DNA of 63,978 bases, the filler included, from Collodictyon triciliatum (lineage: Eukaryota), in NCBI GenBank assembly GCA_043381765.1. It is 6 parts of 6 records of this genome, joined end to end, with 100 filler letters (N's around TTAATTAATTAA, not from the genome) between each part and the next. Parts side by side here need not be neighbours in the genome. Positions count along the whole stretch, not along the records: positions 11,292 to 22,433 come from JBHJMP010002475.1; 5 more parts are not named here. The stretch is one strand, 5' to 3'. Numbering within the stretch: the first letter of the stretch is position 1; each line of letters starts with the position of its first letter. This document shows positions 11,746 through 50,454 of the stretch, in pieces. The notes beneath the pieces are model-generated. The model had not been told where the DNA came from, did no database searches, and saw only the letters and a list, made by a program, of their open reading frames with translations. The translations under genes were made by a program, and so were the position numbers.

Positions 11746-14700
11746 ATGGACAGCAGCCACCCACAGGAATCCGCCGACGAAGTGGGGCAAATACGCGCCT
11801 TTGCAAAGCCCCGAAACTGCGCACCGAAAGAAGCGACCTGGCTCGACCTGGGCTTCCAATCACTCGCGGCCGTCCCTGACTCTGTGTCGCTCTTTGTGAA
11901 TCTGGAGACGCTGCTTCTCAACAACAACGACTTGGCAGCAGAGCTCCCAGCCTGCCTGTCCTGCCTCAAGAAGCTCAGGACACTCAATCTCTGCGACAAC
12001 AAGGTTCCTTCGCAACCACAGCCTCCTTTCCTGCAACTTCTGCAAACCTTTGCGCCTTAGAATGCTTTGTGTGCTTATCGGCTGATCATCGGACTTAGTT
12101 CGACTCGCTGCCTGAGTGGATCGCAGAGTTGGCGAATCTCACGTCCTTGTTTCTGGAGCGCGAAGGGAAAACAAGCGTTGTGTATGCGCCGCGCGGTCTG
12201 ATTCTTTTGCCGTGCTGGAAGAACGATGAGAAGCTGATTTGGATGAAGTACAGTGTGCGCGAGACTCTGTCGAAGTTGGTTCTGTACAGCCATGCGCCGT
12301 TCTACGTGGAGCAAGGCATCGACGATATGGATGTTGTGATGGATGATATCGCTGGTGGCAAAGTGCTGGACGTGTCGGCGAACAAGGTATCCTTAATCTA
12401 TTTCTTTTTCTTTCTTCTCCCTTTTTTTTCGTTTTTCTTTTTGGCTTTTTGGCTTTCTTTTCATAGGCCTTGCCATCCACCGAAAAATATGCTTATGCTT
12501 CCTGCTTTGCTTCTAATCTGATCGGTGTACTAGATCTCTGTGATTCCCGAGACCATTGAGAGGCATCCGCAGCTCGAGATTCTCGTGGCCAGCAAAAACT
12601 TGGTAGGATAACCGATTCGCTGTGTATCAATTAACTGTGGTCTTGAGTTGATATTTGTATTTGTTATTTTCTTCCTCGGCATATATATAAACTCCATATG
12701 TTTTTTTTCCTGTCGAATGTTTATATTTACATCGGTTTTCAGATCTCGGCGATTCCAAAATCTGTGACTGTGCTGACTAATCTTGTCATCCTTGACTTAA
12801 GCAACAACATGGTACGATTATTTCCATTCACGCATCGCCTATTCGCCATCTCATTATTGCAATTTCCTTCTAATCAGATTGGTAGCCTCTGTACCTAAGA
12901 TGTCAAATGAATTCTTTAGATTTCTTCTGTTCCATCAGAGATCCAATTCTTGCGCCTTCTGAAGGAGCTCCACCTCCAAAAGAACAAAGTCACATTATTG
13001 CTATTTATTTCTAAGACACACTTAAAATTATGTCGTTGCCTTGATATATATTACGGTATGTGAATAATACATCGATCACATGTAGATATTCGATCTTCCT
13101 CGAGAAATCCTGTCTCTTACAACTCTCCAGATTCTGGATATCAGCCAAAATTTGGTGACACAGAAGAATGATTGAAATCTTCATTATTTTTTTTTATTGC
13201 TAACTGTGATTAAATATGAACGAAACTAATCTGTCGCGAAAATATTGATGAAAGTGCAGTTTGTCACCTTTCCAAATGTTGTGTCTGCGATGATTTGGAT
13301 AACTTCCTTGAACATATCACACAACAAGGTATTCGTCGGTTGTGTTTACATTTTCCTAACAGCTGAATCATCTCCTTTTCTTTTCCTTTCTATTTCTCTT
13401 TTCCTTCTATTTATATTTCTCTACCTATTTCTCTACCTATTTCTCTACCTATTTCTCTACCTATTTCTCTACCTGTTTCTCTACCTGTTTCTTTTCATTT
13501 CTTTTCATTTCCTTTCTCACTTTGTGTCGACATTTATCTCTTCTTTTTTTTTTTTTGAATCAGATTCCAGCGCTTCCTGAATCTGTGTCCAAGATGAGCA
13601 ATCTCTCAGTTCTGGATGCATCAAACAACAGGGTGAATACCATTCTACATACCAAGCTCATTCACTCTTACAGCCTTTAAATGCTTTTTAAGGAAGTTGG
13701 TTGTGCCTCGTCATTAATCCACCTTCTTTTTTTTTTTTTTTTACGTGAATGTTTGTAACAGATCGATATAATCCCTGCATTTATCGGTGGCATGGATAAG
13801 CTCGTCAGCGGACTCGAAGTGAAGGGAAATCCGGCCAGAAACATTCCCAAGAATGTCTTCAAGCGCGGCTCCGAGGCTATCATCGACTTCCTTAACTCTA
13901 GCAGTAAAGGCGGCTCACAAAAATGGAGACAGGGAAGACTGCTGCTGCTCGGCGAATCACAAGCTGGAAAGACCACTCTTGCTCAATCCTTAGCCCGAAA
14001 CGCAAGCTTTTTGGGTGGCCTCCGACCCGAAAAGATCGAGCAAACAGATGGGATTGAATACACCGATATTGAAATCTTCGATGAGGCTACTGGAGCCGTA
14101 CCCGAGCCGATTGCAATCCGCGTGTGGGATTTTGCTGGTAGCGCCGACTTCCAGCCATCGCATCCTTTGTTTGTGACGGCCGGCGCACTAGTCGTGGTGC
14201 TTTATCGTCTTGACCAAGGCAAGGATGCAAATAATCTCTCGCGCTGGATTCCCATGCTCAACGAAACTGCACCGGGATGTAAGGTGATTCTGCTTGGCAC
14301 ACACAAAGATAGGCAGAACCCAAAGGCGTGCGAGGAAATGAAGAAAGAAATCAAGCATCTCCGCCTTTCTTGCCCGGATGTCCACTTCATGAGTCTAAAG
14401 ACCAGAATCAATCTCCACAACTCGAAGGAACTGACCAGCCTGAAGCAGCTGATTTACCAAGGCATGATTCAACTAGACTGTATCAACAAGTATATCCCAA
14501 AGAACTTCCTTGAGCTCCAAAAGTTCCTTCACGAGAAGGCACGGTCTCTAAAGTTTCTCAAGCTCGAGCAGATTCTCGAGCATGCCGCAAAGTCGCTCCA
14601 GATGAACGAGAGACGGTGCTCCATCGCGCTCAGGTTTTTGCATGACATCGGCTCTGTATTGTGGTTCTCGGACAACGAGAGTACCAAAGACGTTGTGTTT

Positions 14701-17700
14701 CCAGACCCAGACTTCCTTGTTCGTGTCTTCCGCTGTGTCTTTAGCTTCAAAGGCGTCGGAAAACGATCAGAAGGCAGTGGAATGGTGGTGATTTCCCAGC
14801 TGAAACAAAAGCTGGAGCAAGAGTTCGATATCAAAGTGGACGATCAAGTATTTAACGTCATCGTTGGTCTTCTGGACCACTTCGGGCTTGGGCTCCAGTT
14901 CAACAAGGAATGCCTCATCTTTCCTTCCTTGCTCGGCGAGCTCCGAAGCATTAAGAGTGTTTGGAATGAGAAGCAAGAATCCAACTGCGTGGCTGAAATA
15001 TCGATCGACTTGGCAACAAATCATCTGACGCAGCTGAGCGACAGAAGCAAAATCATCGCGTATCTGCTGCGTATAACCAGGGTATCTGCAACAGGTGGCT
15101 CGCCACAAGAAAACTCATTCTACAAAAACGCTGCTGTGGTTCATGTGACTTGCCTTTCTGGAGGCTCTGCAAGTTCATCTAAAAAGGGCTCTGATGATGT
15201 CAAGCTCGGTCCTGGAGAAGACCTTAGAGTTCTTGTGCATTTCTTGTCAGACAAAGTGACCATCGCCGTGCGCAAATACGAAGTGCATGGTGAAAGAAAG
15301 GACTTTATCGATATTTTCAAGGTTCTGAACCACCTTAAGGAGCAAATCCTGGCAGTGCGGCCAGGTGTATTCAAATATTGCAAGATGGGCTGCAGCGAAG
15401 TTGGAAAAGACGGGGCCAAGCAGGAAGTGAAGGCATCGCCCTCGCAGTTTCACGAGTTGGAGGTGGCTCGAAGCACACATGGCCAGGTCATCGACTTTGA
15501 GTCTGCCAAGCGCGGCCGAATTTATCTAGGAAATGGTACACATCCGTGTATATTCCTATTGAGCAAATACAACCCAAAAATAACTGTCTTCTAAACATAA
15601 ACAAGTCATAACATTATTTATTTGCTAAGCTTTTTTTTTTATTATTATTTCTTCCTGCACATTTATCGAGACTAAGATGCCTTTTTGTTCGTCGCACAGA
15701 TGACCATCCCCGTTACCAGGCCGAGGCAAAACGTAAGCAGAAACCAGCCCAGGGCAAAGCAACGAAAACTCTTGAGCTCGCTTCGATCGATGCCGAATTG
15801 AAAAGCCTTTTGACGACTGAGCAGATTGAATTGAGAGACTTCATCGCTAGTGGGACTTACGGCAAAGTATACAAAGGTCGTATGAAAGGCGTAGAAAAAG
15901 ACGTTGCCGTCAAGATCCAGACAGTTCAAGCTGTAGGAAAATCCACGGTCCAAGAAGTCATCGAGTCCGTCATTCAAGAAAGCAAGCTTCTTTTTGAGTG
16001 TCGTGAATGCGAAAACATTGCCAAGCTTCTAAAGGTTTATCGTCGAGAGAGCAACTTCTTTATGGTCATGGAATATGCAGGAACATCGCTCAAGAAAATT
16101 GTGGAGCACAGCAGCGAGTCAAGACCAACACTGGTGCAAATGATGCAATATGGAAAACAGATTTGTCAGGCACTGCTCTACATGCAGACGAAAAACATCT
16201 ATCACGAAGACCTCAAGGCCGACAACATTGTCATAGAAAAGGATGTTGCAAAACTTGTCGATTTTGGCTTTGTCAGCAGACGCGAGATTGAGAAAGTCGG
16301 GTCGCAGCTACCCACACGACTCGGCGAATGGAAGCAAAACGGAAGCAGGAACTGGCAGGCGCCCGAGATTTTCCAAGTAGTCAGCAAACCACACTTTAGT
16401 GATGAACGCAAGTATGGCGAAGACGGTGTCAATGTCGGGCACCGCGGAGAGGCCAGCAATGTGTACGCCTTTGGGCTTCTTGTCTGGTACATGTTTTCGA
16501 GTGTGGAGCCTTTTCTCCATGAGCCCCACCCGCAGAGTTGTGCATCACAAGGAATCCGCCCGGACATCGCAGACAAGACACCCAGTGAGATGACTCGCCT
16601 GATTAAAACCTGCTGGAAACAAAACTACAAGCATCGCCCGACCCTCAAAAACATCCTGCAATACTATACCGAGATTATCGCAAACAACATCCGAATTGCG
16701 CCGGAGCGAGCGCAACAGCTTCTCCCTATCAAGTATGCCCGTCTGGACGACATGTACCGCGGCGAATTAGTAGAGTTTGCTGATGACTTTCAGCTCACAG
16801 AGGTCAAGCAGCAAGTGGCTGCAGAGGACTGGGTCACGGTGGCCGGGAAGTATGGCTCTTCAGCCTCGTCAGCCTTGGCTTCGCTTTATCCAAAGCTCTC
16901 GGGGCAGATCACCAGCGCCGTCCAGGCGATGCAGGGTAGTTCAGTTTGCCCGCCGGCATATTCTTCAAAGTTTACCTTCCAGGACTACCAAGCCTACGAA
17001 CTGACCCTCCAACCCCCGAAGCCTGTCCAAGTTATTCGCCCATCCTCCTCCTTCATCTTTGGCGGGCTGTCTCAGCAGTTCCATTCATCCCACTTCGGCC
17101 ATTTTATCCAGAGCCTCCCCCAAGTCTCGTTCCCTGCTGCGCCCAATCTACTGCAGATGCCCCAGATGCCCCAGATGCCCCAGATGCAGCAGTTCCAATC
17201 CATGCTCTCCAACATCCAAAATACTCTGCAGGAGAAACTCCCAGCATCGCTCCAAGAAATCCTTCCTGCGTCTCTCCAGTTCCACGACGACGAGTCCGAA
17301 GACCAACCACCTCAGAAACAAGAGGCCGTGAAGCCTGCCCCATCGTCGTCCCACAACGCCGCTCATACAAACGCTGCCTTGGCTGCCGTCACACAGGTAA
17401 CTTCCCCGCAAAAGTCACGATTATTTTATTTTATTTTATATATATATATATAAAGAAGCTCAGATACAGCAAAGACTTCATGCATGATTGACTCATTCAA
17501 AGCCGACCCTTCGACATTTGTTCCACTATGAATGCGCAGGCAACAACAGACCAAGTTGTGGAGTGGCTCGAGCATCTCGGTCTCCCAAATGCTGCCAAGC
17601 TCGCTGAGCAATACGGCCTCTCGGGAAAGGACATCATCGGTGTTTCCGAGGAAGAAATCATCAAGTTCTTTGGTGCCGAGGACGCCGCCAAGATTCTCCC

Positions 17701-17926
17701 TGTCCTGGCCAAGCTGCAGGAAAATTGTACCAGTGGCGAATACCAGGTGAATGCGGCTGCACAATCGCCGTCCCGCCCAGCCAACCCACCAAATACCCAA
17801 ACGGCCATCCTCCATCACGATGATTCCACCGATGTCCACCAAGAGGTTGATGAGGGTGAGACTCATGAAAACCAAGCCGCAGGAGGAACTACCAAGCGCA
17901 GGAAACGCCGCTGCCTCATTCTATAG
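11746..17926 (+). CDS. Roco-family protein, LRR-Roc-COR-protein kinase-SAM-like-CaaX, ~1623 aa, 11 exons
   Basis: Exons 11746-12003, 12099-12386, 12534-12602, 12743-12811, 12920-12988, 13086-13154, 13260-13328, 13564-13632, 13762-15535, 15700-17413 and 17503-17926 all join in frame via GT-AG. Roc: GESQAGKTT, QTDGIE, VWDFAG, LGTHKD. COR: ALRFLHDIGSVLWF, VFPDPDFL. Kinase: ASGTYGKV, VAVK, HEDLKADN, DFG, APE. SAM-like: TTDQVVEWLEHLGL...GLSGKDII. Ends KRRKRRCLIL*. Confidence 0.88.
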
Positions 17927-18878
17927 CCGGTTGGCATACACAACAATTTTCTTTTTTTCATTTTTTCTTTTTTCATTTTTCTTTTTTCTTTTTTCTTTTT
18001 TCTTTTTTCTTTTTTCTTTTTTCTTTTTCATATCTTTTTATATACCGGTGGGGCGATGCCACTGCTCTTTGAGAACCTTTCATCCTCTGCGGGTTGGTCA
18101 TGCTTCTCGGCTCATAAACTCACCCACACACCCGCCACAATCTGGTTGCACACCCGACTTCAACTGCACTGCGACCACATAAAAAAACAAAAGCTGCGAT
18201 TTGAGATTCCTCCGTTTTCCAGTGATTGCTGTCAAGTTATTTTGCATGAACGATGGGAACTTGTCGCTTCAGCTGTCTAACTACATCATTCATCTTTCAA
18301 GGCATTAAATATATATTGCGGGCATGATTTTTGTATTATTTATTACACTTAAACCACCAGTAATACAAAAATATGAAAAACTCTATAGATTCCAGAATTA
18401 CATATGTTCTATGTATGTTTCACCAAAAATAGAGAACGTTTTCTTGGAAGGTTTCCGAGAAAGCAACCACACTCCGAAGCGCCAACAGAACACCGGATTA
18501 CTTCGAGGAAAAGCAGAGGGAAACAAGGCTCGAAGTGCATGAAGTGATGTTGGGAGATGGTGAGGAATTTTTCCACGAAGCGCCAATTCTCTGAAGCTGC
18601 TTTGTATCTATCGCATCTGCTCCTATAAAAACATTCCTAAATCCTTCTCGCCGAGCGATGTGAATGGTCGTCACAAACCAGCAACAGAAGGCGAGATGCG
18701 GGTGACGATGCTGGGGAATAGAAGATGACGATACGGATCCAGAAGGAAACGATGAGAACGAAATAAAATAACTGTGCATGGGTTTCGGTGTGATGTTTTT
18801 TTTGTTTTGTTTCATTTTCCTTACTTTTTCTCTGTAGATACCACTTTATTTTAATTTTTGGAAGAAAGAACAAAGCAG

Positions 18879-20362: not shown

Positions 20363-20690
20363 CAGCAGGCATTCTCGACCCATTTTTTCGCTTCAAAGTT
20401 GTGTGTTATCTTCAATTTGCTCTTTCGGACGTCTATTCTCTTCCATCTCCTTTCCCCCACTGTCAACACCATTCAAAAAAGTGCATAAAATAGACTCAAA
20501 TATCTACGTTTACGTGTCTTTCATTTAATTGAGCGCATTTTGGCTTGTTTAAATCAGCGATATTACGTTTTCTTTTATTCGTTATGATTTGATGTTGTAT
20601 TCCCATGTCTCTCGATGTTCCGATTTCATAAGAATAAATCCAGCGCAGTAGGTCAAAAGTCATGTTTTAATCTAATGAAGTAACAGCGTC

Positions 20691-22433
20691 CTATTGCGAT
20701 ATAAATTCGTCAAGTATATCTCGGAAACGAGGCCGGGCTTCTGGAGCACCTTTCCAGCACCTCGTCATCAGAGAAACGATGTATTTGTTCATGCCCTTCG
20801 ATATCTCTGGTCGCAATCCATTTGTGACGGCAAACTGCACGGAGATTGGTTCCATACTGCAGTACGGTGGTTCCCTCATTTCAACCTCCCACAATAGAAT
20901 TCCAAAGCTGTACACATTAGATCTTTCATCATAGTGCTTCCCTTTGAGAATCTGTCATTTTATTACATTCATTCAATCTCACATTTGTGATAGCATTTGA
21001 TAAGATGCTAATATATGTACACTACATGTATGCGATTATGCTCGAACACTAAAATCGGTTCGGATATAAAGAAATAAATAAATAAAAAAAAATTAATACC
21101 TCGGGTGCTTGGTACGCAAAGGTCCCACATCTGGTCATAGTGCGATTGTTTTGTTTCACCCTCGCAAAACCAAAATCACATATTTTGCTCTCATGTTTTT
21201 CATTTACCTATCAAATTATATCAAAATGAACACATAAAAATATGCCCACCTCACAAATTTACACAAAACGCTCACCAAAACATTTGCAGGTTTCAAGTCG
21301 CGATGAAGGATGATAGGGTCCAGGGTGTGGAGATAGTTCATCCCGTTCATGATGCCTTTGATTATTTTCAGCCTAGATTATAGGGCGTTTGAGAGTGTCG
21401 ATGGAGAATATCCGATAAATTAGCATCCTAGCAATCACCTGTCCTCAATTTCCAGAGATTTCGCTCTGTTATGCAAAAGTTGCTGAAGGCTTCCAGGCTC
21501 CACAAGTTCCATGACAATTCCAATATTAGGTCTCTCTGTTGTAGCCCCAATGGAGGATACAATATTTGGATGTGACAGATTCCTATAGAGTACAACCAGG
21601 TCAGAAAAATGGAATGCAAAGATTCACCAATACCATTCTACCTTAAAATATTAACTTCGCAAAGGAAAGCGATGTAAACAGCATCTGACACATAACCTCC
21701 ACACCCAATGTTTTTATAGCAACCCTTCTTCCCTGCGTACAAGAAACAGTATGAAAAGTTAAATTGATCCAATTTAACCCTTAAAAAATGAAGATAAAAA
21801 ACAATGGACTATAAGATACAGCCTTCATTTACTCTTTTTTTTCCGATTTTCCATACCTTATAGTTTGTGATGAACACTGTCCCAAAAGAACCTGAACCTA
21901 ATCTGTTTTCTTTATTTATTAGCCCATCAAATTCGATTTCCCACGGTCTTTTCTCTCTAATACGTGACACATAAGACAAGTTCTCATTCATTCATATGTC
22001 TAAAGGCGATTCCCCGGGCCTTTTTTTTTGGATTTTTCAACGTTGGTAATGAACTTTGAGGTACATCTTGGGTGACCCGCGACATACATGGAGTCTGTGT
22101 GTAGCAAAGTCAATCAGTATGAGAAAATGCCCTGCTCTATCATTCCTACTTTAACAAAATTTTTATTTACTCACTTCAATATCCCCCGCACTCGCGTCAT
22201 CAGCAGATTGATTTTCCATGAAGTAATCTCCTCTCCCTTGGAGTTCATGAGAGAAAATTTGGGGTTACCACCAAAAATTAAAAATTGATAACAAATAAAA
22301 GGCAAATTCACATTCCTAATATATTTTGAATTTCAAAAAAGCAATACTCAATATATACTTCATATATATGACCGGATTCTGTTCTTTTATTTCCCATTTC
22401 TCGGATAGTATTTCTGAGTTCTAACACTCTCAA
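20691..22433 (-). CDS. TKL-group protein kinase, C-terminal kinase domain, 5' part lost at contig end
   Basis: Spliced exons: WEIEFD...LGSGSFGTVF, VAIK, HPNIV, ILHRDLKPANVL, ICDFGFAR, CGTFAYQAPE, NVYSFGILLWE, LMTRCWKGAPEARPRF. Confidence 0.9.
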
Positions 22434-24326
22434 NNNNNNNNNNNNNNNNNNNNNNNNNNNNNNNNNNNNNNNNNNNNTTAATTAATTAANNNNNNNNNNN
22501 NNNNNNNNNNNNNNNNNNNNNNNNNNNNNNNNNTTTTTGTTTTTTTGTTTTTTGTTTTGTTTTGTTTTTTGTTTTTTGTTTTGTTTTGATTTGTTTTGAT
22601 TTGTTTTGTTTTGTTTTGTTTTATTTTATTTTGTTTTATTTTGTTTTCTCGCCATCAATGAACATTTTTGGGTTGTACAAAGATGGAGAGGGAAGAGACT
22701 ATAATGAAGAGATTTAGTTGATGCTGTGCACAGTTACAGGCAGCTTGGACTTACCGCTTTGACCTTTGTGACATTATCTAAACCAACTTTGCTTAAGGTG
22801 ATACAAGGTAGAAAAAAATGTGCTGGACGTAGCTCTCTGGCACGATAAACTCGAAATCCGCAAGTGTTTCAGAATCTTTCATATTGCGATTATATGCCTA
22901 TTTTTAAAAAACAGAGTTAAGGCTCAGATAGCACGAAACACTCTGTCTTGGCAAAATATCTTAGTGCTTATGGTACTGTGACTAGCCTATGCTGAAAACA
23001 AGTCTAAATGGAAGCTTCTTTTGTTGTAAAAAGCCAAGCAAAATACTCTATTTAAGTCATATCTTCACTATATATATTGTAAGAAAAGACCTGTAGCTTT
23101 TGGGATTGTCGGTGAATTCGTTTTTTTTTATGATTGAACATGCAATAGCGTATATGATGTTTTTTTTAATACATATTATAATAATCACAAAGTGAATGAA
23201 AGCAAAGCACATTATTCAATTTCGTGGGAGCCATTCTTTAATGCATTTCAAACACTCCGGAATGATACCCTACATAAATATTTATTATGTTCTCTTTGAG
23301 CGTTCTGGATGGAGTTGAAGCACCGTAGATCGTTTAATCTAGGTTATGTAGACATGCAATGGCTTTAATTATTATAATATTCGATTTAACCAGCAATATT
23401 GTGCTAATAAGGGCTTAGAATGGGCTCGATGTCTTATGGTCGCATTTTATAATTTTTTAAAGAGTAGATATTGTTCGATGTAAAGACACCTCTCATGATG
23501 ACAATAAGCGATAACTACAAGCGCGCCATAAAATGCGATTGTGAGCAATTTAAAATTGTGTTACTTTTAGGAGTAGATTAGTATGTAACTATTCATTTTC
23601 AGACGAAAAAAATCCCCCGTGGCAACATTATCAGTGATAGGCCGAACAATTGTTTTCGATGCTAGAGTGCCTTATTTTTTCTTTTCTGAAATAATGAGCC
23701 AGGACTCGGCGCTGATTATGGGCGATTTGATATTGGTTAGAATTATACACAAGAAAGCCATTATTTCTATCGGAATGCGATGTAAAGATATCTCTTGGTT
23801 ATAAAAAAAAAAAGAGGCAATCTGGGTTGACCAAGCAATTAAGAAAGAAGCCAAGGAATCACACAGAGGAAGAAACATGCATCTCTTTCCCATAACACTT
23901 GGGATGATATCGACACATCGGGCATAGGATTGCCGAGCAAATCATGCTTGGGGCAAACGCAGTAAACCCATGACCCCTGGAGAAAATATTCTTTCATGCC
24001 CAACACGAACGAGATATCCTTTCTCACTGTATCCACTCCACAAGAAAAAGAGAGCATAAAAAGAGGATGCCAAGCGCAGAGAGCAGCAGAGTCAGCCAAG
24101 CGAAACCTGTCAAACAACCCCTCCATCATGCCGCATGTGTTCAATCGACGACAACAGCAGTTATAAATGAGCCTCCATTTCGGGCCGATCAACACTTCCA
24201 GCCAAGCACTTTCGCTTCGCTCTGACTCCCTTTTCCAACTTCCTTTGTCGCACACCTGCTTTGGTAGCAACCTGCCACAAAGCCCAGCACAAACGATGCT
24301 GACTCTCCTCAACATAGACCGTCAAG

Positions 24327-38927: not shown

Positions 38928-39232
38928 CTTCAAGCGTCGCATCTCTTCTGTCCCGCTTAGATGAGTCGTTCGGTCAAATCTTTTACGATCCTGTTATTAC
39001 GTGTCGTTCTTTCAGCTCCCATTTATTTTTATTTTTTTTGTTTATTTGTTTATTTGTTTTTTTTGTTTTTTTGTTTTTTTGTTTTTTTTTTTTTTTTTTT
39101 TGTTTTTTTGTTTTTTTTTTTTTTTTTTTTTTNNNNNNNNNNNNNNNNNNNNNNNNNNNNNNNNNNNNNNNNNNNNTTAATTAATTAANNNNNNNNNNNN
39201 NNNNNNNNNNNNNNNNNNNNNNNNNNNNNNNN

Positions 39233-50354: not shown

Positions 50355-50454
50355 NNNNNNNNNNNNNNNNNNNNNNNNNNNNNNNNNNNNNNNNNNNNTT
50401 AATTAATTAANNNNNNNNNNNNNNNNNNNNNNNNNNNNNNNNNNNNNNNNNNNN

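What the first reader, a model, noticed from the sequence alone, without database searches (positions are those of the whole stretch)
12534..13632. Six consecutive 69-nt, phase-0 exons, each encoding exactly one LRR
Seen: exons 12534-12602, 12743-12811, 12920-12988, 13086-13154, 13260-13328 and 13564-13632 are all 69 nt (23 aa) with introns at the same repeat position (after LxxLxLxxNx), while Roc-COR and kinase lie in ~1.7-kb exons. Any subset can be skipped, duplicated or swapped without frameshift. Established: one-LRR-per-exon Roco genes with exon shuffling have been described in the brown alga Ectocarpus and proposed as immune-type receptors. Inference: a modular, diversifiable recognition surface in this protist.
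Basis: partly seen in the sequence, partly recalled or inferred. Interest (0 to 1): 0.72.

Follow-up and report, generated by a model that had tools for sequence, protein, structure and literature searches.

The report
One-repeat exons in a Roco kinase
Six equal-sized small exons each encode one leucine-rich repeat of an expressed signalling kinase gene in a little-studied freshwater flagellate; this looks like an old relic of exon duplication, a gene layout already known elsewhere, and not an actively reshuffled receptor.

Summary
The six intervals are each 69 nt, flanked by AG and GT, in phase 0, and encode one 23-residue LRR. An RNA contig splices 12386|12534 and 12602|12743 exactly as predicted. 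The other four 69-nt exons have no RNA cover.

They belong to an 11-exon, 1605-codon gene (11746-17926, + strand). Its order is LRR, Roc, COR, kinase, SAM. All 8 introns of the LRR part sit at the same repeat position.

The organism is a diphyllatean (CRuMs) flagellate. The Roc-COR part falls in a clade with 8 Diphylleia rotans Roco transcripts.

The "diversifiable surface" reading found no support:
- The six exons are 23-61% identical, and 35% at third positions.
- The introns hold no relic or cryptic LRR exons on either strand.
- The LRR part is at most 31% identical to any of 150 relatives.
- Diphylleia isoforms show no LRR-block skipping.
- Brown-algal ROCO exons differ: 72 nt, phase 2, shifted boundary, no kinase.

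Best reading: a fossil of ancient exon-plus-intron duplication in an ordinary Roco kinase. It is a new member of a known kind.

The parts
11746..12003 (+). Exon 1 (258 nt, phase 0): ATG, N-terminal cap and two 23-residue LRR units with no intron between them. It ends after ...LxLxxNx.
   Evidence: Pfam LRR_8 gives 26 bits (cut-off 27). nhmmer hits at 11867-11928 and 11957-12003. The start codon is inferred and has no RNA cover.
12099..12386 (+). Exon 2 (288 nt, phase 0): starts as an LRR unit, carries a non-LRR island of about 73 residues, and ends at the same repeat position.
   Evidence: The X1 contig covers 12115-12384 and splices to 12534. No Pfam family was found.
12534..12602 (+). 69-nt LRR exon 1 of 6 (exon 3)
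   Evidence: AG/GT flanks and 23 aa. Both flanking introns are spliced out in the X1 RNA contig.
12743..12811 (+). 69-nt LRR exon 2 of 6 (exon 4)
   Evidence: The acceptor is confirmed by the X1 contig, which covers up to 12803. Pfam LRR_4 gives 16.3 bits, below the cut-off.
12920..12988 (+). 69-nt LRR exon 3 of 6 (exon 5)
   Evidence: No RNA cover.
13086..13154 (+). 69-nt LRR exon 4 of 6 (exon 6)
   Evidence: No RNA cover.
13260..13328 (+). 69-nt LRR exon 5 of 6 (exon 7), the most divergent unit
   Evidence: No RNA cover.
13564..13632 (+). 69-nt LRR exon 6 of 6 (exon 8)
   Evidence: No RNA cover.
13762..15535 (+). Exon 9 (1774 nt): last LRR unit, Roc GTPase and COR
   Evidence: Pfam Roc 58.3 bits and COR-A 47.6 bits. 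The best solved relative is LRRK2, E 1.8e-23. The donor at 15535 is confirmed in X1 and X2.
15700..17396 (+). Exon 10 (1697 nt, enters in phase 1): protein kinase followed by a Q/P-rich tail
   Evidence: Pfam Pkinase 126 bits. The best solved relative is RIPK1, E 9.4e-20. RNA joints at 15535|15700 and 17396|17540.
17540..17926 (+). Exon 11: SAM domain and the TAG stop codon (17924-17926)
   Evidence: Pfam SAM_3 24.5 bits and SAM_2 21.9 bits. The joint to exon 10 is seen in an X10 RNA contig. Stop codon.

Best explanation
The six exons are the middle of the LRR solenoid of an expressed cytosolic Roco kinase (LRR, Roc GTPase, COR, TKL-type kinase, SAM; 1605 codons, 11 exons) of a diphyllatean flagellate.

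The LRR array most likely grew by ancient tandem duplication of a unit made of one 69-nt exon plus its intron. That would explain why every intron in this domain sits at the same point of the repeat and in phase 0. The copies have since diverged to saturation.

The exons appear to be spliced together constitutively. The regular layout is then a historical footprint and not a working diversification device.

Inferred function: the LRR arm binds partners or folds back on the catalytic core, Roc-COR acts as the GTP-dependent switch, the kinase is the output, and SAM mediates oligomerisation. The domain functions are inferred from family knowledge (LRRK2 and Dictyostelium Roco proteins, recalled), not tested here.
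For: Shown:
- Exact 69-nt, phase-0 exons with AG/GT flanks.
- 8 of 8 LRR-domain introns at the same repeat position.
- Splicing of exon 2, exon 3 and exon 4 in one RNA contig, and of 15535|15700 and 17396|17540.
- Roc, COR-A, kinase and SAM found by Pfam.
- P-loop, DxxG and xHKD motifs in Roc, and G-loop, VAVK, HxD..N, DFG and APE motifs in the kinase, readable in the translations.
- Intron density of 8 introns in the first 1035 coding nt against 2 in the remaining 3783.

Old age of the copies:
- Pairwise nt identity 23-61%, mean 44%; third positions 35%; amino-acid identity 4-12 of 23.
- The introns share only T-rich low-complexity matches.

No sign of ongoing shuffling:
- No further LRR unit in the 64-kb window on either strand.
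- 0 cryptic AG-(63..75 nt)-GT open exons in the 8 introns.
- LxxLxLxxN-like motifs in the introns number 5, against 3.0 +/- 1.8 in shuffles.
- The LRR part is at most 31% identical to any of 150 relatives.
- 8 Diphylleia paralogues share no LRR block of 50% identity or more; the only such match is a collinear 51% pair.

Family context: Roc-COR sits in an SH-aLRT 99 clade of 11 rows, made of 8 Diphylleia rotans proteins, 2 unnamed proteins and the window gene.
Against: - Four of the six exons have no RNA cover, and Logan contigs drop rare isoforms, so exon skipping cannot be excluded.
- No genome is held, so paralogues in the same genome and their intron positions could not be examined.
- The Diphylleia comparison uses transcripts that are only 25-33% identical.
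- The tree was a quick search and the window gene has a long branch (1.91), so its placement is less sure.
- Duplication of an exon-intron unit is inferred from the layout. The introns no longer show any similarity that would prove it.
- The spliced protein could not be passed to Pfam or to structure prediction.
Confidence: 0.7

Rival explanations
1. The symmetric one-LRR exons are used as interchangeable modules. Exon skipping or genomic exon shuffling among Roco paralogues would vary the LRR surface, making an intracellular immune-type receptor as proposed for brown-algal ROCOs.
For: - The exon symmetry permits it.
- The precedent exists in brown algae and in human NLRP3 exon skipping (passages of PMC6642158).
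- The gene belongs to an expanded Roco clade with at least 8 paralogues in the Diphylleia rotans transcriptome. Some of them are fused to DUF4062 and an AAA_16 NTPase.
Against: - No relic, antisense or cryptic LRR exons.
- The exons have diverged to saturation.
- No mosaic similarity to 150 relatives.
- 0 of 6 Diphylleia isoform clusters differ by an LRR block.
- The only RNA contig across exons 2-4 includes the first 69-nt exon and runs on into the second.
- 2 of 2 strain differences in the LRR part are synonymous, against 10 non-synonymous of 20 in the rest of the gene.
- Exon size, phase and boundary differ from the algal type.
Confidence: 0.12
2. The regular introns were gained independently at equivalent sites in each repeat, because the repeated coding sequence offers the same insertion (proto-splice) site. 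On this view they were not inherited from a duplicated exon-intron unit.
For: 4 of the 8 exon ends are AAG or AGG, which partly resembles a proto-splice site. The introns share no sequence similarity.
Against: - No following exon starts with G; they start with A or T. The full MAG|G site is therefore never present.
- Eight independent gains at one position and phase are far less parsimonious than duplication.
- The boundary between the two units inside exon 1 offers the same kind of site and has no intron.
Confidence: 0.05
3. This rival is compatible with the best explanation. The contrast between small LRR exons and 1.7-kb Roc-COR and kinase exons comes from secondary loss of introns from the 3' two-thirds of the gene, for example by recombination with a reverse-transcribed mRNA. 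That process is known to spare 5' introns (recalled).
For: - 8 of 10 introns lie in the first 1035 of 4818 coding nt.
- Elsewhere in the window open frames are short. Leaving aside frames that run through N stretches, the only stop-free frames above 300 residues are the two in this gene. This suggests that long exons are the exception in this genome.
Against: No annotation or genome is available to measure typical exon size. Intron positions in the paralogues are unknown. The Roc-COR-kinase part could equally have been intron-poor from the start.
Confidence: 0.3

Closest known systems
Brown-algal LRR-ROCO genes with type I LRR exons (Ectocarpus, Saccharina; PMC3341825, PMC11378527)
   Same: These are Roco genes in which consecutive equal-sized symmetric exons each encode one LRR N-terminal to Roc-COR.
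   Different: The algal exons are 72 nt and phase 2, with the boundary GxxP...NxLx. Here they are 69 nt and phase 0, with the boundary after Nx. The algal proteins are LRR-ROC-COR without a kinase, whereas here a kinase and SAM follow. The algal loci show relic or antisense LRR exons, recombined paralogues, splice variants and positively selected sites. None of these was found here.
Human LRRK2 / LRRK1
   Same: Same domain order: LRR, Roc, COR, kinase. LRRK2 is the best solved relative of the Roc-COR part (E 1.8e-23, query 40-397 against LRRK2 1318-1679) and gave 26% identity. The kinase is TKL/RIPK-like.
   Different: No armadillo, ankyrin or WD40 domains were detected, and the C-terminus is a SAM domain. 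In the tree the gene groups with the diphyllatean Rocos and not with the LRRK2-like animal proteins.
Diphylleia rotans Roco transcripts (EukProt EP00002; P0005-P0011, P0013)
   Same: They are the closest sequence relatives (E 1.8e-50 to 1e-24, 25-33% identity). All have LRR-Roc-COR and form one supported clade with the window gene.
   Different: Among the 10 other clade members, none has a kinase. Five carry DUF4062 after COR (four of them also AAA_16), three carry PH and two carry nothing detected. Their intron positions are unknown because only transcripts are available.
Tetrahymena 90-bp-exon LRR genes (PMC6564038)
   Same: They have tandem arrays of exactly equal LRR exons separated by same-phase introns, explained by duplication of exon-intron units (passages).
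   Different: The exons are 90 nt and phase 2. There are thousands of young genes, associated with retroelements. They are not Roco genes.
Human NLR/NOD LRR exon modularity (PMC6642158)
   Same: The exon border always falls at the same position of the repeat, with one LRR per exon in NOD/NLRC genes. This modularity allows in-frame skipping (passages).
   Different: The repeats are 28-29 residues of the RI class on a NACHT NTPase. Skipping is demonstrated there (NLRP3 exon 5) and is not demonstrated here.

Membership tests
Roco proteins | Roc (Ras of complex) GTPase domain | tested here: met
   Pfam PF08477 gives 58.3 bits (cut-off 27) at residues 59-183 of exon 9. GxxxxGKT, DxxG and xHKD are readable.
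Roco proteins | COR domain directly C-terminal to Roc | tested here: met
   Pfam PF16095 COR-A gives 47.6 bits (cut-off 35.3) at residues 246-391 of the same exon. The match to LRRK2 Roc-COR spans 1318-1679. No Pfam COR-B match was reported at E <= 0.01.
LRRK-type Roco kinases | Protein kinase domain C-terminal to COR in the same transcript | tested here: met
   Pkinase gives 126 bits. The exon 9-exon 10 joint 15535|15700 is seen in RNA contigs of two runs.
LRRK-type Roco kinases | ANK/ARM N-terminal repeats and a C-terminal WD40, as in LRRK2 | tested here: not met
   Pfam on all exon translations found none. The C-terminal exon is a SAM domain.
Brown-algal type I LRR-exon ROCO genes | 72-nt exons, phase 2, unit GxxPxxLxxxxxLxxLxLxxNxLx | tested here: not met
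   Here the exons are 69 nt and phase 0, and the unit starts at IxxIP and ends at Nx.
Brown-algal type I LRR-exon ROCO genes | Relic or antisense LRR exons in the LRR-domain introns, and recombined near-identical exons among paralogues | tested here: not met
   Six-frame HMM search and nhmmer over the window found none. There are 0 cryptic exons in the introns. Exon identity is 23-61% and identity to relatives is at most 31%. The paralogues of the same genome could not be examined.
Brown-algal type I LRR-exon ROCO genes | Alternative splicing of LRR exons | tested here: inconclusive
   One contig shows inclusion of the first 69-nt exon and continuation into the second. The other four exons are uncovered, and contigs drop rare forms.
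Typical 23-residue LRR | LxxLxLxxNxLxxLPxxLxx register repeated in tandem | tested here: met
   The column profile of the six units shows invariant P5, L17 and N22. A local BLAST of the spliced LRR part against the LRR regions of relatives gave E down to 6.6e-37. Single 23-residue exons are too short for Pfam thresholds; the best score is 16.3 bits.

The most novel reading that the evidence does not exclude
Diphyllatean flagellates (CRuMs, a deep branch near Amorphea) hold an expanded family of intracellular LRR-Roco sensors with exchangeable output modules (kinase-SAM, DUF4062 plus a STAND-like NTPase, PH). The one-LRR, phase-0 exon layout would let them vary the sensor surface by exon skipping or exon gain and loss. 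That would be an independently evolved, Roco-based innate-immune-like repertoire outside algae, plants and animals.
Probability: 0.1. Interest if true: 0.7.

Novelty: new member of a known kind. Interest (0 to 1): 0.33.

Why it matters
It adds an independent case (69 nt, phase 0) to the known list of LRR domains built from one-repeat symmetric exons. That list includes brown-algal ROCOs, Tetrahymena LRR genes, NLRs and gonadotropin receptors. The new case lies in a eukaryotic lineage with almost no described nuclear gene structures.

It also shows that Roco proteins are expanded and diversified in domain make-up in Diphyllatea.

For the wider question of whether exon-modular LRR-Roco genes are immune-type diversifying receptors, this gene is a useful negative example. 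It has the layout without any of the signs of ongoing shuffling, so the layout alone should not be read as evidence of diversification.

Tried and rejected
- Whole genome: none is held for this window, so no genome-wide search for paralogues or 69-nt exon arrays was possible.
- The search for homologous proteins with Roc-COR: the near-length search gave nothing. The longer-length search gave only 4 distant hits, the best being LRRK2 at 26%.
- Metagenome contigs: the single-protein scan confirmed none of 137 pattern matches. The alignment scan (A1) gave 19 loci at 21-32% identity. 17 of these hold the match in one open frame of 390 residues or more, and none has a 69-nt LRR exon array. L017 and L018 look intron-bearing but do not have one unit per exon.
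- Earlier-findings index: empty for this genome, for the sequence and for the words searched.
- RNA runs: X9 and X10 cover only the 3' part of the gene. No run covers 12804-14307, so nothing can be said about splicing of the last four 69-nt exons.
- Pfam on single 23-residue exons: 2 of 7 pieces gave sub-threshold LRR hits and 5 gave none. The pieces are too short to be informative.
- The spliced protein was not sent to Pfam, structure prediction or remote searches, because joined sequences are not accepted there. No 3D model of the LRR arm was made.
- Literature: 'roco' with 'diphyll' returned 7 papers, none relevant by title or abstract start. 'roco', 'collodictyon', 'diphylleia' and 'crums' (at least 2 terms) returned 74 papers; the 10 listed contain no 'roco'. 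'LRR', '69 bp', 'exon' and 'phase 0' returned 0 papers. Supplements of the brown-algal papers (selection tables, exon lists) were not available.
- Considered and rejected: an assembly or gene-model artefact. The region holds no N, RNA contigs of separate studies match at 98-100%, and the six copies are too divergent to be a collapse or an amplification chimera.
Full report
OBSERVATION

The region was read directly and checked by script. Each is preceded by AG and followed by GT, and translates in frame 0 to 23 residues without a stop. The six peptides align without gaps. Position 5 is always P, position 17 always L and position 22 always N, and positions 1, 4, 8 and 14 are aliphatic or F. This is the common 23-residue LRR written from the residue after 'Nx'.

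The window holds 155 AG-69 nt-open-GT candidates on both strands. Only these six fit that pattern. The pattern was derived from the six, so this shows that they are unique in the window and is not an independent test.

A protein profile of the six units searched against all six frames of the window, and a DNA profile searched with nhmmer, recover the six at E 5e-11 to 1e-6. Otherwise they find only weak matches to the LRR units in exons 1 and 2 of the same gene.

GENE MODEL AND EXPRESSION

The exons belong to a + strand gene from the ATG at 11746 to the TAG at 17924-17926. It has 11 exons and 1605 codons. Pfam finds these domains:
- LRR_8 in exon 1 (26 bits, just under the cut-off).
- Roc (58.3 bits) and COR-A (47.6 bits) in the 1774-nt exon 13762-15535.
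- Pkinase (126 bits) in the 1697-nt exon 15700-17396.
- A SAM domain in the last exon.

Logan contigs of four RNA runs were laid on 11600-18100. One 402-nt contig of run X1 covers 12115-12384, 12532-12601 and 12742-12803. Its two GT..AG joints, after the stated shifts, are 12386|12534 and 12602|12743. The first 69-nt exon and both of its introns are therefore confirmed, and so is the acceptor of the second.

The joint 15535|15700 is seen in X1 and X2, and the joint 17396|17540 in X10. The latter ties the SAM exon to the kinase exon.

No contig covers 12804-14307. The other four 69-nt exons therefore rest on splice sites, frame and motif. The runs are freshwater or aquaculture metatranscriptomes plus one run with a coded organism name.

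EXTENSION OF THE OBSERVATION

Exon 1 ends at 12003 and exon 2 at 12386, both after '...LxLxxNx' and in phase 0. Exon 9 begins with a further LRR unit. So 8 of 8 introns in the LRR part lie at the same repeat position and phase.

Not every unit has its own exon. Exon 1 holds two full units with no intron between them. Exon 2 is one unit interrupted by a non-LRR island of about 73 residues.

Intron density is 8 in the first 1035 coding nt against 2 in the remaining 3783.

ORGANISM

No genome is held for the window. A ribosomal protein S16 exon in the window (56625-57065, minus strand) is 98% identical to an unnamed NCBI record and 73% identical to Collodictyon triciliatum S16. Other eukaryotes score lower.

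Of the 10 best Roc-COR relatives looked up, 8 are from the Diphylleia rotans transcriptome. The window therefore comes from a diphyllatean (collodictyonid, CRuMs) flagellate. The species was not determined.

RELATIVES

A full HMMER search with the Roc-COR exon found 4614 proteins at E <= 0.001. The best has only 33% identity.

In a quick maximum-likelihood tree of the window plus the 60 best hits, the window sits in a clade with SH-aLRT 99. The clade has 11 rows: 8 Diphylleia proteins, 2 unnamed proteins and the window gene. The window gene has a long branch of 1.91, which makes its exact place less sure.

All clade members have LRR-Roc-COR. The parts after COR differ: DUF4062 in five (with AAA_16 in four of them), PH in three, and nothing detected in two. 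None of the 10 others has a kinase.

The best solved relative of Roc-COR is human LRRK2 (E 1.8e-23). The best solved relative of the kinase is RIPK1 (E 9.4e-20).

TESTS OF THE 'DIVERSIFIABLE SURFACE' READING

(a) Age of the copies. Pairwise identity of the six exons is 23-61% (mean 44%), third-codon positions are 35% identical, and amino-acid identity is 4-12 of 23. The introns share only short T-rich matches.

(b) Relics. In Ectocarpus the LRR-domain introns carry intact or decayed LRR exons, often on the other strand (PMC3341825 section 15). Here the 8 introns hold 0 open AG-(63 to 75 nt)-GT candidates on either strand. They hold 5 LxxLxLxxN-like motifs, against 3.0 +/- 1.8 in shuffles. No LRR unit lies elsewhere in the 64 kb.

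(c) Mosaic exons. The spliced LRR part, compared locally with the 150 best relatives, reaches at most 31% identity. That is no higher than Roc-COR at 32%. Among 8 Diphylleia paralogues there is no internal or cross-protein block of 50% identity or more, apart from one collinear 51% pair.

(d) Isoforms. Six 90%-identity clusters of Diphylleia Roco transcripts were compared, 5 of them with more than one isoform read (16 sequences aligned). The differences are N-terminal truncations, one 49-residue non-LRR insert and C-terminal variants. None of the 6 clusters differs by an LRR block.

(e) Polymorphism. The X1 contigs differ from the window at 20 coding sites and the X2 contigs at 2, which makes 22 in all. 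The 2 in the LRR part are synonymous. Of the other 20, 10 are non-synonymous. The numbers are too small for a selection test, but they do not point to diversifying selection on the LRRs.

COMPARISON WITH THE KNOWN CASES

Brown-algal ROCO LRR exons are 72 nt and phase 2. Their unit is GxxPxxLxxxxxLxxLxLxxNxLx, and the proteins are LRR-ROC-COR without a kinase (PMC3341825 section 15; PMC11378527 abstract and sections 11 and 15).

The boundary here lies two residues earlier in the repeat and in another phase. The two layouts therefore cannot be inherited from a common exon and must have arisen separately.

Equal-sized, same-phase LRR exon arrays are also described elsewhere:
- Tetrahymena, 90 nt and phase 2 (passages of PMC6564038).
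- Human NLR genes, where the exon border is always at the same place in the repeat and NLRP3 exon 5 is skipped (passages of PMC6642158).
- Gonadotropin receptors (cited in PMC11378527 section 15).

The kind of structure is therefore known. This is a further, independent instance. Searches of the held library found no paper on Roco genes in Diphyllatea and none on 69-bp phase-0 LRR exons.

MECHANISM

Shown:
- The gene is transcribed and spliced as modelled at four junctions.
- It has the domains of a Roco kinase, with the usual nucleotide-binding and catalytic motifs readable.

Inferred:
- The LRR array grew by tandem duplication of an exon-plus-intron unit long ago.
- The units diverged, and the exons are now joined constitutively into one solenoid.
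- That solenoid serves as the binding or regulatory arm of a GTP-switched kinase, with SAM for self-association.

The long Roc-COR and kinase exons may reflect later 3'-biased intron loss. This is compatible with the best explanation and was not tested.

Independent intron gain at each repeat is unlikely. No junction has the full proto-splice site, and one equivalent boundary in exon 1 has no intron.

VERDICT

The gene is a new member of a known kind. Its interest is modest. It would rise if long-read cDNA or a genome-wide census showed exon skipping or shuffling in this Roco family.

Noticed in passing
window 17397-17926: A 143-nt intron (17397-17539), confirmed by an RNA contig of run X10, joins the kinase exon to a SAM-domain exon. 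This gives an LRR-Roc-COR-kinase-SAM architecture. None of the 10 other members of its Roco clade has a kinase.
   Followed up: partly
proteins P0005, P0006, P0007, P0009, P0043, P0158 (Diphylleia rotans transcripts and one unnamed): Several of the closest Roco relatives carry DUF4062 after COR, and most of those also an AAA_16 (STAND-like) NTPase. This puts two NTPase switches behind one LRR arm. Others carry a PH domain instead.
   Followed up: partly
window 12160-12360 (inside exon 2): A stretch of about 73 residues with no Pfam match interrupts one LRR unit, forming an 'island' inside the repeat array. It is covered by the X1 RNA contig, so it is coding.
   Followed up: no
window 13400-13490 (intron 7): A 12-nt unit is repeated about seven times in tandem inside the longest LRR-domain intron (235 nt). 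It has no LRR coding potential.
   Followed up: no
window 11300-11710: A long purine-rich (A/G) microsatellite runs up to about 35 nt before the predicted ATG. The upstream frame is open through it, so the true start codon is inferred only.
   Followed up: no
window 11192-11291, 22434-22533, 39133-39232, 50355-50454, 61560-61659: There are five pairs of 44-N runs, each pair separated by 12 bases, and several of them are spaced about 11.2 kb apart. This looks like a masking or scaffolding pattern and not biology.
   Followed up: no
window 14728-14762: Contigs from three RNA runs (X1, X2, X10) match only this 32-35 nt stretch of the COR region and continue with unlike sequence on both sides. They may be paralogous Roco transcripts sharing a conserved motif (tables 7 and 8).
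   Followed up: no
window 20690-22000, minus strand: A separate, intron-rich TKL-type protein kinase gene lies 3 kb downstream (PK_Tyr_Ser-Thr 62 bits for one exon). Other neighbours are housekeeping genes: symplekin, ornithine decarboxylase, ribosomal S16 and the DNA primase large subunit.
   Followed up: no
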